Part shown: positions 36,966 through 43,814 of the stretch, piece after piece
How positions within the stretch are numbered: the stretch's first letter is position 1
Layout of the letters: each line of letters opens with the position of its first letter
Assembly: GCF_009914755.1 (NCBI RefSeq)
Contig: NC_060939.1
Source: the human T2T-CHM13v2.0 reference genome, Homo sapiens
Reading direction: 5' to 3' (one strand)
Length of the DNA: 64,000 nt
Notes under the pieces: model-generated
The model's database searches: none
Told to the model about the DNA's origin: nothing
What the model saw: the letters and a program-made list of their open reading frames with translations, nothing else
Program-made: the position numbers and the translations under genes

Positions 36966-37949
36966 GAAAAAGGACTCTCACTTTCATAAGTAGAATAATA
37001 TACTGTTTAATTATTAATTTAGAAGCCCAATCAAAAAAGGAAAAAAAGTCAAAAGGTACAAATTATCAGTGAGATAACAGACCTTGCACACAGAGGAACT
37101 TAACATATTAGAAATGTACAAAAATATTGTAAAATATTTACTAAATAATACTATGAACTATTTTATGCTCATGACTTAAATGATGATTCAAAGCCCAAAT
37201 AGATCACAAATGTAAAAAAATGCAAAAATTGCCAAATAACTATATCCTTAGCTATCATCAGTCTGACAGTTTAATTGGTGAATCTTTTCTTTTCTTTTCT
37301 AAATTAAAAAATTTTTATTAGTAACATTTTTGTCCTTGGTAATCCTTCCGAATAAAGAAATCTATGAAAATGCTATGGAAAATTAAATTAAACAACATAT
37401 AAAATCACCTGGGCACCTGGAAGATGGTGAAGAAATATTTTGTGACATAAATTTAAAACTGAACTATCAATTTTTAAAAAGCTTTAGTGTTTCGTTAAAA
37501 GTATGAAAAAGAAATTTAAAATATGCTTAAATAATCGTTAGTCAGAGATATATTCAGAAAGGAAACTTATTAAATGTACTACTTTTTTCATTCTCCATGG
37601 TAAAACTGAGAATGAGAATCTTGGTAAAGGTTAAAATTTTGAAATAATAGCGTATCTGGGGACATCAACTATTCCTTACATCTTGAACACACAATCTTTC
37701 TATTTACTCTGTAAACATGCTCAGTTTTGAACCTACCACCCCCTATACCTGACATTATCTTTGCTCTATCTTTCAATTCTTAATTGAGCTTATGGAAAGA
37801 GACATACCAATGTCTCTACCTTTTTTTCCCCAAACCTTTCTCCTCAAACCACTACTATCTGGTTTCTGCTTCCACTACATCATATCTGAAACTAAAATGT
37901 CAAAGCAATCACGTTGCCAAATGTGAAAAAGGATTTCCCAGACCTTTTG

Positions 37950-39360
37950 GGAGTTGGTATCATTGCTTCACATGGCATTACTAACCTGTCCCTCCTTGTA
38001 CTTGTTTTCTCCTGGCTTTGGATATGGCATTCTTTCTGCCCTGCATACTTCTCTATCATTCCTGTTTGGTCTCATTAGCTAGATCCTTTTCTCTACTTGC
38101 TCCTGTAGTGCAGACTCTGCTCTTCTCATTTTATCCTCTTTTTCTAGACAATCTCATCCACTCCCATGGTTTCAGTTGCTATCTATAAACTATCTTTATC
38201 TCTATCTCAGACCACTTTGGTGACTTCCAGCATCATACAGCCATCCAACCATCTGTGACATTTCTCCATGTGGATATCCAAAGACACTTCAAACTTAACA
38301 TTAAAAAAAAAAATCTCACATACCTTCTTCTCCCCTCAAATCAGCTGTTCCTCCTAAAATCTCTACCTTGGCTGATGGTTCATTATCACCCTGTCAAGAC
38401 ACCTGGATATCATACTCTCATTCATTTCTAACTTAGTCTCAAAGTCCCATGAATTCAACCTTTCAACTATTTTTAAAATCTGTCCATTCCCACTTCTCAC
38501 CACTATTGCCTTAGGTTGGATCCTTCATAATCTCTTAGGTGGACTATAGCAATGGCCTCTTAGATGTTCTTGGCGTTTCCAATCTTATTTCTTCCAATCA
38601 ATCATTTATAATGTTGCCAAAATGATCTTTCCAATACGTAAATCTGATCACATTTCTCCCAAGCTGAAGTAATCCCTACAGCTCTTAAATAATTAGTTGC
38701 TTAAAGAATTCATTTACTCACTCATTTAACAAATATTATTTACCACATAACGTATGATTTTAGGCAGAGAGGAAATTATAGTAAATGAAAATATTTAGAG
38801 AATATGCAGAAAGGTAGATATTAAACAATCCCCTAAATAAATGTATGATTACAAATTTGACAAATGCAATGAAGAAAAATAATAAGTCACAAAGGAAGAA
38901 AAAGAGGAGACCTACTAGAGATTGTGAAGTTATATTATTTTTGAGAGAATAATATCTCGGTAAGTTTAAAAAATGAGTAGAAGTCGCTCAACAAAGAAGT
39001 AGTTTTGGTAGAGGGAACAGCACGTACAAGGGATCTGAAAGGGAAAGGAGATTAGAGTGTTAAAAGAAATGAAGGTAAGCCTATTTGGCAAGAGCTTAGT
39101 GAAGGATGGGATAGTGGCCTGAGACAAGATTATTGACATAGAAACCAAGTCATGTAGGGTTTGTAAGCCAAGGTATGGATTTGGGTTCTTTTGAAAGGCT
39201 ATGGGAAGCAATTAAAAAGTTTTAGGCAGATGAATCACATGGTTATATTTACATCTTAAAGTTTCACTCTGGCTGCTGGTAGAGAATAGATTATAGCCTG
39301 AGTGGATGTGAGAAGACTAGTAAAGGGATTATTCCATTAGTCTAGGAGAGAAAAATGGTG
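37950..39360. mobile_element. Ancient L2 fragments in both orientations inside the DCAF6 retrocopy
   Basis: ctcatccactcccatggtttcagtt...acttcaaacttaacat; cattcatttactcactcatttaacaaata; cactctggctgctgg. Confidence 0.65.
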
Positions 39361-40214
39361 GTGGGCAGTCTCTATTAACTTTTAGAAGTTATCTTTAGGT
39401 AATGTGAGCCTGCAACGTGAAGTTCCTAGTACTTTAAAAGTTATAATGCTGATGAACAAAAAGGTATGTAAAAACTCAGGATTTAATCTAATTAGATACA
39501 TTTTCCACCATTAGAACATTTCTGCTCAGAGATCTTATTACAAAGCTACATTTCTGATAGTCTACTACGATGCAGCTTCTGCCAAAGCCACTCAGTACTA
39601 ACCTCTTACATAGCATCTCTACTTACATGATTAAAATGCATATCATACTTGACATAGTCAAAAGATAAAGAACCACTTGATTTCTACTTCCAAGCTACTC
39701 AACTCCCTAGTAAATGGCCTTACCATTTACCCTACCCAGGCACTGATGTAAAAAATCTGAGAGTTAATCATAATTTTTCTCTTCCTCTCATATCCCATAT
39801 CATATGTAAATTAAGTATCAACTTAAATTGAATATAATATTCAATGTAATGCTATGAAAATTATTGTATGTGATTAATGAGAATATAAATCTGGCTATAA
39901 AATCTCTGATAGTGATATAGTATTTATATCCATATATCCTTAGGAAAAAATTCCCTTTAATTATAGAGTAGTTATAAACAGTAGTCTAATATAGTATGCT
40001 ATAGTTGTGTTTTGCCTTAATTATTCTTCATTGTTAATACCTCTATAATAAACATATAAAATAAAACGCTTAATTTCTTAGTTTGCAAATTAATTTACCA
40101 ATTCGTTCATTCTTTCTTTGTCAAGAACGGAAAACCTTATAGCAATACAGGTCATCTCAGGTCCATAAAGAGTAATTTAAGATCAGAAATTCATGTCAGG
40201 TCCATGAGGAATAA

Positions 40215-41160: not shown

Positions 41161-42009
41161 ATCTGCTTTTTTAAATAGAGGAAGTGAATATCATGTTAAG
41201 TTATTCTTAAAGACTTAACTAAGATTACTTATCATACTTTGTCACAATATATTTAAAATACTTCATTAAATTCTGAGGTGAGATAGTAAACCATTTGTGC
41301 TAACCCTAAATAGCCTTTTTAGTTTTTGAATAGTCTTCCTATCTCCAACCTTTTCAGATGTCCCTTCATGTCAGAATGTCTTCCTCTGCTAATCCTTCTC
41401 TGTGCTGTATTTGATCTGCTAGTAATAAAGCTTGATAAACAAGTAATCTGTTTATTTCATCAGGCTCTATTCAAGGCTTGGAGATTGACTCTATAACTTT
41501 CCCACATTGAAAAGTGCAAGTGGAAGTGGGAGCTTCTGATTGATAGCTTTTGAGCTTACCTCCGGGTTTGTAACTGTATTCTTTAGTTAAAGCTATCAGG
41601 AATTTGGCTACCAGATAAGTGAGACATAAAACCAAGTATCATTACTAAAGCAATCTAGTGATACAGAATATTACTGTGTTTAAATAACTTATCCTACATA
41701 AACAACAAGGTAGTGTTAACCTCACACTCACAATTCTACATGATTTTATGACAGATATCTAGGATTTAAAAAATGGATATAGCTTATATCCATTATAATT
41801 TTGTTATACTGAGAGAGTTCAAAGTTGGCATCAAGGGTCAAAGGTAGAAATTAGCTTACATAGAAAATAATTTGTATAGGCCAAACAGACCTTTTGTATA
41901 CAATACCACCTACTGTAATTTAGTCCACAAAATACTGACTATAAGACCATAATCAAAATGAAATGCTATGAAAGGTGTGCGAGAGCTTAGTTTATGCACT
42001 GCAATAAAG

Positions 42010-43488
42010 CTATGGATGGATGGGCATAGCGCATCTCCTGTTGCACGCACTCTGTTGCTCATCAAGTTACATGGATCTGAGCTGTTTGTTAACCACAGAA
42101 GAAGGTGAATCAGTCTGATGATGTGTGTGGTGTCCAGATGCCTCAACAGACTGCCTTTGTTCACTGTCTGGCGAAGATTAAAAAGGAGTAGAATGAGGGC
42201 TTTCTGTGGGAGATGATGTCAAATGAGCCTGAGCTGACATTGTAGAGGATGTAGATGGCTGAAGAAACTGTTCAGCTGGAGTATCTACTTCCATTGCAGT
42301 TTCACTCACTTCCAAATCAGGACTTGATGGGACCATAGGAAGAGTTGAAATATCTGATTGACTTGTTCCACCTCTGGGTCAAGATCTTCCTCATCCTCTA
42401 TTGCTTTGTGCAACCTCACTTGCTTTTTCGAACCGTCTTGATAACATATCAGACATTCTCTGCATCAATGACACATTGGGACTCTGCTCTCCATGTCATT
42501 CTCGTTCACTCTCAGGCCTTGATCTGGGTCCAGTATCTGACCAATCACCACGAAGTCTCAAACGCTTAACTGGTGGTTGTCGTAACTCTTCTCTTCTCTC
42601 TTCCGCAGAAGGAGTTTTAAGTTCTCGTGCTGTATCATCTTTCGGGTCAAAAAGATATATGTAATCTGAAGAGTAACTAATGAGAATCTCTTGACCATCT
42701 TCACTGTAACACAGAAATGTCACTCTGCAGGACTTATTATTAAGATGGGAAGCAATAAAATGGGCAACCATTCCAGTAGTCCCTCGACCTGCATAATTCC
42801 CTGTAGCTCTTGTGCCCAGCATTCGCCTATCATATATTTGTACTGAGCTATAAGAACAACCAACGGCAAGGTAATATGGTATTGGTGGGCAAATAGCAAC
42901 AGATGTGGCAGCACGTCGACAGCTAATTAAAATATCATCTTCACAATCTTCTTTTGTGCAGCTAGTTTTGATGCGTGTATCAAACCACCTACCAGTTCTA
43001 TCTTCACCACAAGAGAGAAAAGTGTAAGGGTCATTGGGTACAGTCATAATCTCATAAGTAGTTCCATAGTGGCAAGTAAATTGGCATTGTCTGTTGGTTT
43101 CTGCATCTTGCTCAACATTGGTATAAAATATTACTCCATCTCCAGAGCAGGATACAATCTGTTTATCATTTGTGCAAGGTAAGAACTTTGCATTAGATAT
43201 GTTTGCTTGGTGCCCCGAACGAATTGTTGTCAAAACCTTTCTGCTGTAGGGATTACTAATTACTAATTTGGTGTCATCTGAGCCAGATAAAATATATTCT
43301 CCAGTGTCATTCCAACAGATTGTATTAACACAGCCATCATGCACATTTAGGGTTGCTTCAAGTTTCAATCTTTAGATAAATTCTCTTCTTCCCAGGTAGT
43401 GGCCCCACAGCCAGGACAGGTCCTCCAGCCCGAGGGACCTTTTCCTCATGTCCCACAACAGATGTGGGCAGGAGCCACCCCGAGACAT
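42010..43488 (-). pseudogene. Disabled DCAF6 coding region (N-terminal WD40 repeats plus low-complexity linker)
   Basis: Reads [23 protein letters not shown]...[36 protein letters not shown]... with no introns. In-frame stops at codons 39, 331, 366, 370, 437 and 474; terminal TAG at codon 493. No net frameshift. Confidence 0.95.
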
Positions 43489-43814
43489 GGCTCTGCCTGA
43501 GCGAGGTGGGAGGGGAGACCCTACCTGAATCTTTTCAAAGTGTCATAAAACAGATAGTTCTATAGTCTTGATATCATTATAGAACATTTAAAAAAATAAG
43601 GAAAGCTTCTGTTTTCCAAAAGCACTTAATAATGATTGGTCCTGTTTACAGGTTGTGATATTTTGTATACTCCTTCTTTTACCTTTTTTTGCTGTAAGAT
43701 ATCTGCGTGGTTGCCTTCTATTGTCTTTTCATCTTGCTTGTCCTTAACATGAAAGTCCTGGCCACACCTTAGCTTTTCTTTGCTACCTTAAAGAGAGTCT
43801 CTAAACATGTGAAA

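What the first reader, a model, noticed from the sequence alone, without database searches (positions are those of the whole stretch)
37279..43536. 6.2-kb DCAF6 retrocopy preserves an intronically polyadenylated, truncated DCAF6 isoform
Seen: coding homology covers only ~1.5 kb, but the 11-bp TSD (tgaatcttttc), tail remnant and AATAAA lie ~4.7 kb further on. The target reads TTTC/AA, an L1 endonuclease-type site. Removing the insert rejoins what looks like one old L1M ORF2 stretch (gacagtttaattggtgaatcttttcaaagtgtcataaaacag). Upstream exons are spliced. After an exactly 60-nt segment (42051-42110, [16 protein letters not shown]) the copy runs into GTGCGT and closes 13 codons later (SACNRRCAMPIHP*). 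Recalled: that 60-nt segment is a DCAF6 alternative exon, and DCAF6 has an IQ motif and two more WD40 repeats further C-terminal. Inference: the template was a germline or early-embryo mRNA that ignored this donor and used a poly(A) site ~4.7 kb into the intron. It would encode a ~492-aa DCAF6 lacking the IQ motif and C-terminal WD40s.
Basis: partly seen in the sequence, partly recalled or inferred. Interest (0 to 1): 0.8.

Follow-up and report, generated by a model that had tools for sequence, protein, structure and literature searches.

The report
DCAF6 retrocopy carrying 4.7 kb of intron
This is a dead, L1-made copy of a DCAF6 messenger RNA that skipped one splice site and ended at a poly(A) signal inside an intron, so it records a shortened DCAF6 transcript roughly 25-35 million years old; it is a neat example of a known kind of event.

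Summary
Window 37279-43536 (minus strand) is one retrocopy bounded by an exact 11-bp target-site duplication. Exons 1-11 of DCAF6 (chr1) are joined at 10 of 10 junctions, each with a single GT-AG solution. From the 60-nt exon 11 the copy runs colinearly through 4,677 nt of the following 15.3-kb parental intron, both Alus included, at 93.4% identity. Homology ends 18 nt after an AATAAA that the parent still has. The parent continues with non-A sequence there, while the copy has an A-rich remnant and then the duplication. Only 0.41% of positions in that intron stretch have an AATAAA at that distance.

The parental read-through ORF is exactly 492 aa. A database protein, P0121 (492 aa, from a 1,792-base spliced contig), carries the same 13-residue intronic tail, so this donor is still read through today.

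The copy has 6 nonsense changes and no indels, and it looks neutral since birth.

The "old L1M ORF2" target was not supported, and the IQ motif was not detected by the one scan run. Use of this poly(A) site in living tissue could not be checked. This is a new member of a known kind, of moderate interest.

The parts
43526..43536 (-). 5' copy of the 11-bp target-site duplication (gaaaagattca on the minus strand)
   Evidence: Read directly. It is identical to 37279-37289.
43521..43525 (-). 5 nt (ggtag) between the duplication and the start of clear homology. They are either untemplated or parental GGT plus a 2-nt insertion.
   Evidence: The parent reads ...CGCGGT|GGTCTCC upstream of the hit.
42111..43520 (-). 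DCAF6 exons 1-10, spliced (129, 62, 93, 186, 114, 136, 215, 94, 120 and 261 nt). The ATG is at 43488-43486. Five of the nonsense codons lie here: 43374-43372, 42498-42496, 42393-42391, 42381-42379 and 42180-42178.
   Evidence: One search gave 11 colinear chr1 hits. One search found exactly one GT-AG solution at each of 10 junctions. One search found 63 substitutions, 0 indels and 6 nonsense codons in 1,512 nt.
42051..42110 (-). The 60-nt alternative exon 11 (chr1:167374455-167374514). It holds the sixth nonsense codon at 42069-42067. Its last base is A where the parent has G, the -1 position of the donor.
   Evidence: The segment is present in the 880-aa named DCAF6 proteins.
42010..42050 (-). 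Unspliced donor GTGCGT and the read-through codons ending at the stop at 42012-42010
   Evidence: The parental version reads GACNRRCAMPIHP then a stop.
37299..42050 (-). 4,752 nt copied from the first 4,677 nt of the parental intron after exon 11 (chr1:167374515-167379191)
   Evidence: Searches gave a single HSP. One search gave 4,640 aligned nt, 93.4% identity and a largest indel of 20 bp.
40746..41163 (-). Alu in the sense orientation of the transcript, already present in the parental intron and carried along in the RNA
   Evidence: It lies inside the colinear alignment. 387 nt align at 91.0% identity.
40209..40540 (-). Second sense Alu, also shared with the parental intron
   Evidence: 309 nt align at 89.6% identity.
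37314..37319 (-). AATAAA poly(A) signal, matching the parental hexamer at chr1:167379168-167379173
37290..37298 (-). Poly(A) tail remnant (aaaagaaaa). It is not templated by the parent, which reads TGGACTTGG at this point.
37279..37289 (-). 3' copy of the 11-bp target-site duplication

Best explanation
A DCAF6 transcript with exons 1-11 correctly spliced failed to use the donor of the 60-nt alternative exon 11. It was cleaved and polyadenylated 18 nt after an AATAAA lying 4.68 kb into the following 15.3-kb intron, which made exon 11 plus that intron stretch a 4.74-kb composite terminal exon. The roughly 6.15-kb mRNA was reverse-transcribed and inserted by the L1 machinery into an intron of ENTREP2 on chr15, in the same orientation as the host gene, at a TTTC/AAAG site. 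This created an 11-bp duplication. The copy was never a working gene and has decayed neutrally. The steps shown here are the splicing pattern, the colinear intron, the parental hexamer, the untemplated A-rich end and the duplication. The inferred steps are L1 as the agent, germline or early-embryo expression of the template, and an age of about 25-35 Myr.
For: - **Single parental match:** one colinear match to chr1:167374454-167379182 covers window 42111-37304, and there is no other genomic match for the non-Alu part.
- **Splicing:** 10 of 10 exon junctions each have exactly one GT-AG solution. The removed introns are 543 to 18,199 nt long.
- **Exon 11 boundaries:** the parent shows cag|ATTC on the left and CAGG|GTGCGT on the right.
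- **3' end:** homology ends at ...AATAAATTTTTTTAAAAATTTTAG. The parent then reads TGGACTTGGTT, whereas the copy reads AAAAGAAAA followed by the duplication.
- **Hexamer rarity:** the 4,671-nt parental stretch holds only 2 AATAAA and 3 ATTAAA. An AATAAA starts 15-30 nt upstream of only 0.41% of its positions, or 1.45% if ATTAAA is also counted. The three A-runs of 7 or more in the scanned parental stretch are 13-18 nt long and sit 2.9-3.7 kb upstream of the end; there is none at the end.
- **Intron length:** the next DCAF6 exon lies at chr1:167389838, so the end point is truly inside the intron.
- **Decay:** the coding part differs from the parent by 63 substitutions in 1,512 nt (4.2%), against 6.6% in the intron part. 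It has 0 indels and 6 nonsense codons. Of the 35 amino-acid differences in residues 1-479, 34 are on the copy's own branch.
- **Present-day read-through:** protein P0121 is 492 aa, stands for a cluster of 16 members, and comes from a 1,792-base contig that must be spliced. It ends with the same tail, GACNRRCAMPIHP. Its first 459 residues are identical to those of 23 named Old World monkey DCAF6 proteins, so it comes from the gene and not from a decayed copy.
Against: - The tail remnant is only 9 nt and contains a G. Part of the A-rich run belongs to the duplication.
- No 3'-end sequencing data were available, so cleavage at this site in living cells is not shown.
- P0121's contig can reach at most about 300 nt into the intron. 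It could have been assembled from pre-mRNA reads.
- DCAF6 was absent from the one held supplement of the immune-cell IPA atlas.
- The only DCAF6 site in the InPACT tables is a 600-nt composite exon, which is a different event.
- No paper in the library holds both 'DCAF6' and 'intronic polyadenylation'.
- The copy has A where the parent has G at the -1 position of the unused donor. The template may therefore have come from a rare splice-defective allele and not from a regular isoform.
Confidence: 0.9

Rival explanations
1. L1 reverse transcriptase primed internally on an unspliced or partly spliced DCAF6 pre-mRNA at an A-rich stretch, with no real cleavage and polyadenylation at this site.
For: The intron is AT-rich (35% G+C). 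It contains sense Alus with A-runs of 13-18 nt. The tail remnant is short.
Against: The parent has no A-run where homology ends; it reads TGGACTTGG there. The long Alu A-runs upstream were not used as the end point. The end lies 18 nt after one of only two AATAAA in the stretch, a placement found at 0.41% of positions. Ten upstream introns, including an 18-kb one, were already removed.
Confidence: 0.04
2. The template was a one-off aberrant transcript and not a recurrent isoform. One possible source is an allele whose exon-11 donor carried the -1 G>A change now seen in the copy. On this view the copy says little about normal DCAF6 expression.
For: The copy has CAGA|GTGCGT where the parent has CAGG|GTGCGT. 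A single insertion needs only one RNA molecule. No published DCAF6 poly(A) site at this place was found.
Against: One G>A among about 3-4% of changed sites is expected from later decay alone. P0121 shows the same donor read through in an intact ORF from a present-day source, in a cluster of 16 member sequences. The parental hexamer is still intact and is followed by G/T-rich sequence.
Confidence: 0.3
3. The intron part arrived by a DNA-level event, such as a segmental duplication or gene conversion from chr1, separately from the processed pseudogene.
For: None specific. It is raised only because NCBI annotates the pseudogene as 42052-43520 without the intron part.
Against: Exon 11 and the intron are contiguous in one alignment with no junction. 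A single pair of 11-bp duplications brackets the spliced part and the intron part together. The intron part ends at a poly(A) signal followed by an A-rich remnant.
Confidence: 0.01

Closest known systems
LOC100420707, DCAF6 pseudogene (RefSeq annotation supplied with the finding)
   Same: It is the same locus and strand. The annotated span 42052-43520 equals the exon-derived part found here.
   Different: The annotation stops at the end of exon 11. It omits the 4,752-nt intron-derived part, the poly(A) signal, the tail remnant and the duplications (37279-42050 and 43521-43536).
Intron-containing ('semi-processed' or partially processed) retrocopies, and processed pseudogenes read as 'genomic fossils' of past transcript variants
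   Same: This is an L1-made copy of a transcript that kept intron sequence, so it records an unusual RNA form. These terms occur in PMC5470649, PMC3449122, PMC3491395 and PMC4772013, which I saw only as search listings. The concept itself, and the 2006 'genomic fossils' study, are recalled and were not read here.
   Different: Here the retained sequence is not a whole intron. It is the first 31% of one, cut off at an internal poly(A) site, so the copy records premature polyadenylation and not simple intron retention. No paper in the library holds both 'retrocopies' and 'intronic polyadenylation'. None of the 9 papers listed (10 hold both terms) for 'processed pseudogene' plus 'intronic polyadenylation' concerns this by title or abstract.
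Composite-terminal-exon intronic polyadenylation, including the DCAF6 site in the InPACT tables (PMC10960005, supplement files 4 and 5, passages seen)
   Same: The mechanism is the same: an internal exon's donor is skipped and a downstream intronic signal is used. It happens in the same gene.
   Different: The listed DCAF6 event is a 600-nt composite exon. That fits exon 12 (start chr1:167389838), which has an AATAAA 580 nt further on. It therefore lies in the next intron, not in this 4.74-kb exon-11 event. This placement is my inference from lengths, because no liftover was available.
Srrt-regulated premature cleavage site of mouse Dcaf6 (PMC6969169, passages seen)
   Same: Dcaf6 is prone to premature cleavage and polyadenylation in embryonic stem cells, a cell type from which heritable retrocopies can arise. 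The site was mapped by 3'RACE and its hexamer is reported in several mammals.
   Different: The passage sits in a section about first introns. The event here follows exon 11. I could not see that paper's supplementary figure.
Short DCAF6 forms ending ...SGPLKSWVAGSCSE (P0122-P0125, 459-506 aa; P0125 is named DCAF6 of Rhinolophus ferrumequinum)
   Same: These are also N-terminal forms that end between exon 10 and exon 12 and lack the C-terminal propeller part.
   Different: They use a separate terminal exon inside intron 10, encoded in human at chr1:167371008-167371049. They do not read through exon 11.

Membership tests
L1-mediated processed retrocopy | Introns removed exactly at the parental exon junctions | tested here: met
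   10 of 10 junctions each have one GT-AG solution.
L1-mediated processed retrocopy | Target-site duplication flanking the whole insert | tested here: met
   An exact 11-mer lies at 43526-43536 and at 37279-37289.
L1-mediated processed retrocopy | 3' poly(A) tail not encoded by the parent | tested here: met
   The 9-nt remnant aaaagaaaa stands where the parent reads TGGACTTGG. It is short, as expected for an old copy.
L1-mediated processed retrocopy | Insertion at an L1 endonuclease-type site (consensus TTTT/AA, recalled) | tested here: inconclusive
   The + strand reads tcttttc/aaag at the nick. This is one base off the recalled consensus, and the exact nick position is ambiguous because of the A-rich tail.
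L1-mediated processed retrocopy | Located away from the parent gene | tested here: met
   The copy is on contig 15 and the parent is on contig 1.
Intronic-polyadenylation isoform with a composite terminal exon | Donor of an internal exon unused, and the transcript colinear with the intron | tested here: met
   A single gap-poor alignment runs across the donor GTGCGT.
Intronic-polyadenylation isoform with a composite terminal exon | Canonical hexamer 10-30 nt before the 3' end, present in the parent | tested here: met
   AATAAA is at chr1:167379168 and homology ends at 167379191. This geometry occurs at 0.41% of positions in the stretch.
Intronic-polyadenylation isoform with a composite terminal exon | The end lies inside the intron, before the next exon | tested here: met
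   The next exon is at chr1:167389838, so the intron is 15,323 nt and the end is 4,677 nt into it.
Intronic-polyadenylation isoform with a composite terminal exon | Direct RNA evidence of cleavage at this site in cells | not testable with these tools
   No 3'-end data were held. P0121 shows read-through of the donor in a spliced contig but not the 3' end.
   tblastn with a natural 889-aa L1 ORF2 open frame (locus L064) found no match crossing the junction at E <= 10. The only significant L1-like stretches are at 44531-44806 (E 9e-11) and 45058-45199 (E 0.001). The immediate flanks, 36973-37289 and 43540-43790, matched none of the 20 repeat copies fetched, apart from one weak non-colinear hit (37130-37233 to L043, 65% identity, E 4e-5). 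Sensitivity for very old elements is limited.

The most novel reading that the evidence does not exclude
The 492-aa DCAF6 form is not noise. It would be a recurrent, polyadenylated isoform that catarrhine primates have made from the same intronic signal for at least about 25-35 Myr. It consists of exons 1-11 plus 13 intron-encoded residues, and its terminal exon is 4.74 kb long. It keeps the N-terminal WD40 blades but lacks the C-terminal blades, so it could act as a modulator or decoy of full-length DCAF6/NRIP. The chr15 copy would then be a dated record of that isoform. Together with the separate ...SGPLKSWVAGSCSE terminal exon in intron 10, this would mark the exon 10-12 interval as a regulated truncation point of the gene.
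Probability: 0.25. Interest if true: 0.55.

Novelty: new member of a known kind. Interest (0 to 1): 0.35.

Why it matters
The finding corrects the extent of an annotated pseudogene from 1.5 kb to 6.2 kb and explains 4.7 kb of otherwise unassigned sequence in an ENTREP2 intron. It also gives dated, sequence-level evidence that a specific intronic poly(A) site of DCAF6 was used in a heritable cell lineage tens of millions of years ago. That site is still intact in the human gene, and the same read-through ORF turns up in a present-day primate-type transcript contig. This makes a concrete and cheap prediction for 3'-end and long-read data. More broadly, it shows that retrocopies whose homology to the parent gene's genomic sequence runs past the annotated exons can be mined for old premature-polyadenylation events. 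The biology itself, L1 copying of an unusual mRNA, is well understood.

Tried and rejected
- **Flanks as one old L1 (DNA level):** own-genome searches with each flank found two different repeat families, at 36700-36970 and at 43791-44034. Sensitive blastn of both flanks against the 20 fetched copies found essentially nothing for the 300 and 250 nt next to the insert, and no colinear continuation. The one exception was a weak, non-colinear hit of 37130-37233 to L043.
- **Flanks as one old L1 (protein level):** a local tblastn with a natural L1 ORF2 open frame found no junction-spanning match.
- **Searching for the read-through tail directly:** A search of the 160-510 aa length class replaced it and found P0121.
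- **Published DCAF6 poly(A) site here:** no paper holds 'DCAF6' with 'intronic polyadenylation'. Ten papers hold 'DCAF6' with 'polyadenylation', and I opened two of them. The held supplement of PMC5928244 has no DCAF6 entry, but only one file of about 450,000 characters was held, so it may be incomplete. PMC11541570 lists DCAF6 only as gene-level values without sites.
- Paper reading closed, so PMC10227441's supplements and the retrocopy reviews could not be read. Earlier findings of this scan were not open.
- **Timing from protein states:** only one site is informative. Residue 435 is P in all 13 catarrhines sampled and in the copy, and S in all 7 New World monkeys and lemurs sampled. No site separates apes from Old World monkeys in a way that dates the copy.
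- **Segmental duplication and internal priming:** both were considered and rejected for the reasons given under the rival explanations.

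
Full report
**What is in the window**

On the minus strand, the 11-mer gaaaagattca occurs at 43536-43526 and again at 37289-37279. Between the two copies lie 6,236 nt. 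These consist of 5 nt of unclear origin (43525-43521), 1,470 nt of DCAF6 exons (43520-42051), 4,752 nt with no coding homology (42050-37299), and a 9-nt A-rich remnant (37298-37290). An AATAAA sits at 37319-37314.

**The parent**

A search with the whole stretch gave one long colinear match outside chr15: contig 1, 167374454-167379182, plus strand, for window 42111-37304. Every other hit was either a DCAF6 exon on contig 1 or an Alu. A local blastn confirmed a single HSP of 4,841 columns at 91% identity with gaps counted. A global alignment gave 4,640 aligned intron positions at 93.4% identity. The Kimura distance is 0.061-0.069 in the non-Alu parts, and no indel exceeds 20 bp. Both Alus in the stretch (40209-40540 and 40746-41163) lie inside this alignment. 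They were therefore already in the parental intron and travelled in the RNA.

**Splicing**

A search with the coding part alone gave 11 colinear pieces on contig 1, spread over 86 kb. For each of the 10 junctions there is exactly one way to split the overlap that leaves GT and AG in the parent. The removed introns are 14,790, 14,766, 8,108, 12,477, 3,595, 1,886, 9,041, 1,294, 543 and 18,199 nt long.

The eleventh piece is the 60-nt exon, chr1:167374455-167374514. It is preceded by cag and followed by GTGCGT in the parent. The copy runs straight through that donor. Named primate proteins of 880 aa contain the 20 residues of this exon and 860-aa forms lack them.

The next DCAF6 exon is at chr1:167389838. 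The intron is 15,323 nt long and the copied part is its first 4,677 nt.

**The 3' end**

In the parent the sequence reads ...ACTAATAAATTTTTTTAAAAATTTTAG and then TGGACTTGGTTACTG. In the copy it reads ...ACTAATAAAAATTTTTTAATTTAG, then AAAAGAAAA, then the duplication. Homology therefore stops 18 nt after the parental hexamer, and the A-rich end of the copy is not encoded by the parent.

The 4,671-nt parental stretch has only 2 AATAAA and 3 ATTAAA. An AATAAA starts 15-30 nt upstream of only 0.41% of its positions, or 1.45% if ATTAAA is also allowed. The A-runs that do exist, 13-18 nt long, are 2.9-3.7 kb upstream of the end. This argues for true cleavage and polyadenylation and against internal priming on pre-mRNA. 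G/T-rich and T-rich sequence follows the site in the parent, as expected for a working signal; that reading of the downstream element is from general knowledge.

**The encoded product**

Joining the parental exons in a script and reading through the donor gives an ORF of exactly 492 aa, ending ...LDEQQGACNRRCAMPIHP. The copy reads ...SACNRRCAMPIHP then a stop.

Pfam finds N-terminal WD40 and propeller matches in both the 860-aa human protein (P0091) and the 492-aa form. Matches at residues 712-806 occur only in the long protein, and WD40 gives 2 stretches there against 1 in the short form. No IQ match appeared at E <= 0.05, so the IQ motif rests on the NRIP literature, which I saw only as a listing.

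**Independent trace of the same read-through**

A search restricted to proteins of 160-510 aa returned P0121 as its best hit. P0121 is 492 aa, stands for a cluster of 16 member sequences, and was predicted from a contig of 1,792 bases. A contig that short can only hold a 1,479-nt ORF if it is spliced. P0121 ends with the same 13-residue tail and was the only one of the 198 proteins fetched that holds it.

P0121 differs from the human ORF at 3 residues. Its first 459 residues are identical to those of 23 named Old World monkey DCAF6 proteins. It therefore derives from the gene, not from a decayed copy. This shows that the exon-11 donor is still read through in spliced transcripts. It does not show where those transcripts end, and assembly from pre-mRNA reads cannot be excluded.

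**State and age of the copy**

Against the parental cDNA, the copy has 63 substitutions in 1,512 nt and no indel. There are 22 synonymous and 36 non-synonymous codon differences. Six of the latter are nonsense changes: codons 39, 331, 366, 370, 437 and 474. Of the 35 amino-acid differences in residues 1-479, 34 are at sites where human, chimpanzee and macaque agree, so they arose on the copy's branch. The remaining one (residue 7) is a human-lineage change in the gene itself. This pattern fits neutral decay from birth.

The intron-to-intron distance of about 0.065 is close to the human-macaque genome-wide divergence as I recall it. With recalled rates of about 1.0-1.3e-9 per site per year, it gives roughly 25-35 Myr. 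One protein site agrees that the insertion came after the split from New World monkeys: residue 435 is P in all 13 catarrhines sampled and in the copy, and S in all 7 New World monkeys and lemurs sampled.

**What did not hold**

At the DNA level, the flanks contain two different repeat families that end about 310 nt to the left of the insert and about 250 nt to its right. The sequence next to the insert matched none of the 20 fetched copies, apart from one weak non-colinear hit of 37130-37233 to L043. At the protein level, a natural 889-aa L1 ORF2 frame matched the window only at 44531-44806 (E 9e-11) and 45058-45199 (E 0.001). Nothing crossed the junction at E <= 10. The claim is not supported, although very old elements could escape these tests.

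**Literature**

- No paper in the library holds 'DCAF6' with 'intronic polyadenylation'.
- A mouse stem-cell study mapped a premature Dcaf6 cleavage site by 3'RACE, in a section on first introns (PMC6969169, passages).
- The InPACT tables list one human DCAF6 composite site of 600 nt (PMC10960005, supplement passages). By length and by the AATAAA at chr1:167390417, it fits exon 12 and not exon 11. This placement is my inference.
- The immune-cell IPA atlas supplement that was held has no DCAF6 entry.
- Reviews that use the terms for intron-containing or semi-processed retrocopies and 'genomic fossils' were seen only as listings, because the paper reader closed.
- No paper holds both 'retrocopies' and 'intronic polyadenylation'.

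**Verdict**

This is an L1-type retrocopy of a DCAF6 mRNA whose last exon was exon 11 plus 4.68 kb of intron, ended at a canonical signal that the gene still carries. It extends an annotated pseudogene and gives a testable prediction about a truncated DCAF6 isoform. The mechanism is known and the copy itself is dead. Interest is moderate (0.35), and the finding is a new member of a known kind.

Noticed in passing
L062, chr1 (CHM13) 167371008-167371049, inside DCAF6 intron 10: The human gene encodes ...SGPLKSWVAGSCSE followed by a stop. This matches the C-termini of short database DCAF6 forms P0122-P0125 (459-506 aa; P0125 is named for a bat). It is a second, separate terminal exon that also truncates the protein after exon 10.
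   Followed up: partly
window 42051 (minus strand): The last base of exon 11, the -1 position of the unused donor, is A in the copy and G in the parent. This could be later decay, or a splice-weakening variant in the template allele.
   Followed up: no
window 37279-43536 relative to ENTREP2 (minus strand, exons at 4810-4944 and 60725-60835): The retrocopy lies in an ENTREP2 intron in the same orientation as the host gene and still has an intact AATAAA (37319-37314). It could therefore offer the host gene a cryptic poly(A) site.
   Followed up: no
window 44531-44806 and 45058-45199, + strand: These are L1 ORF2-like stretches (tblastn E 9e-11 and 0.001 against a natural L1 open frame). They are separated by sequence that overlaps the masked repeat at 44712-45063. 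This looks like an old L1 fragment about 1 kb to the right of the insertion site and not at it.
   Followed up: partly
window 36700-36970 and 43791-44034: Two different high-copy repeat families are present (3,205 and 1,113 first-look candidates, 72-81% identity). Their ends are consistent across the fetched copies. The families were not named.
   Followed up: partly
L056, chr1 (CHM13) 167389838-167390437: Exon 12 of DCAF6 followed by an AATAAA at 167390417 fits the 600-nt composite terminal exon listed for DCAF6 in the InPACT supplement. The gene would then have a second intronic poly(A) site one intron downstream.
   Followed up: partly
DCAF6 residue 7 (parent exon 1; window 43470-43468 in the copy): Human DCAF6 has Y at residue 7, where all 16 other anthropoid proteins sampled and the retrocopy have C, and the 3 lemurs have F. 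This is a human-lineage substitution in the gene.
   Followed up: no
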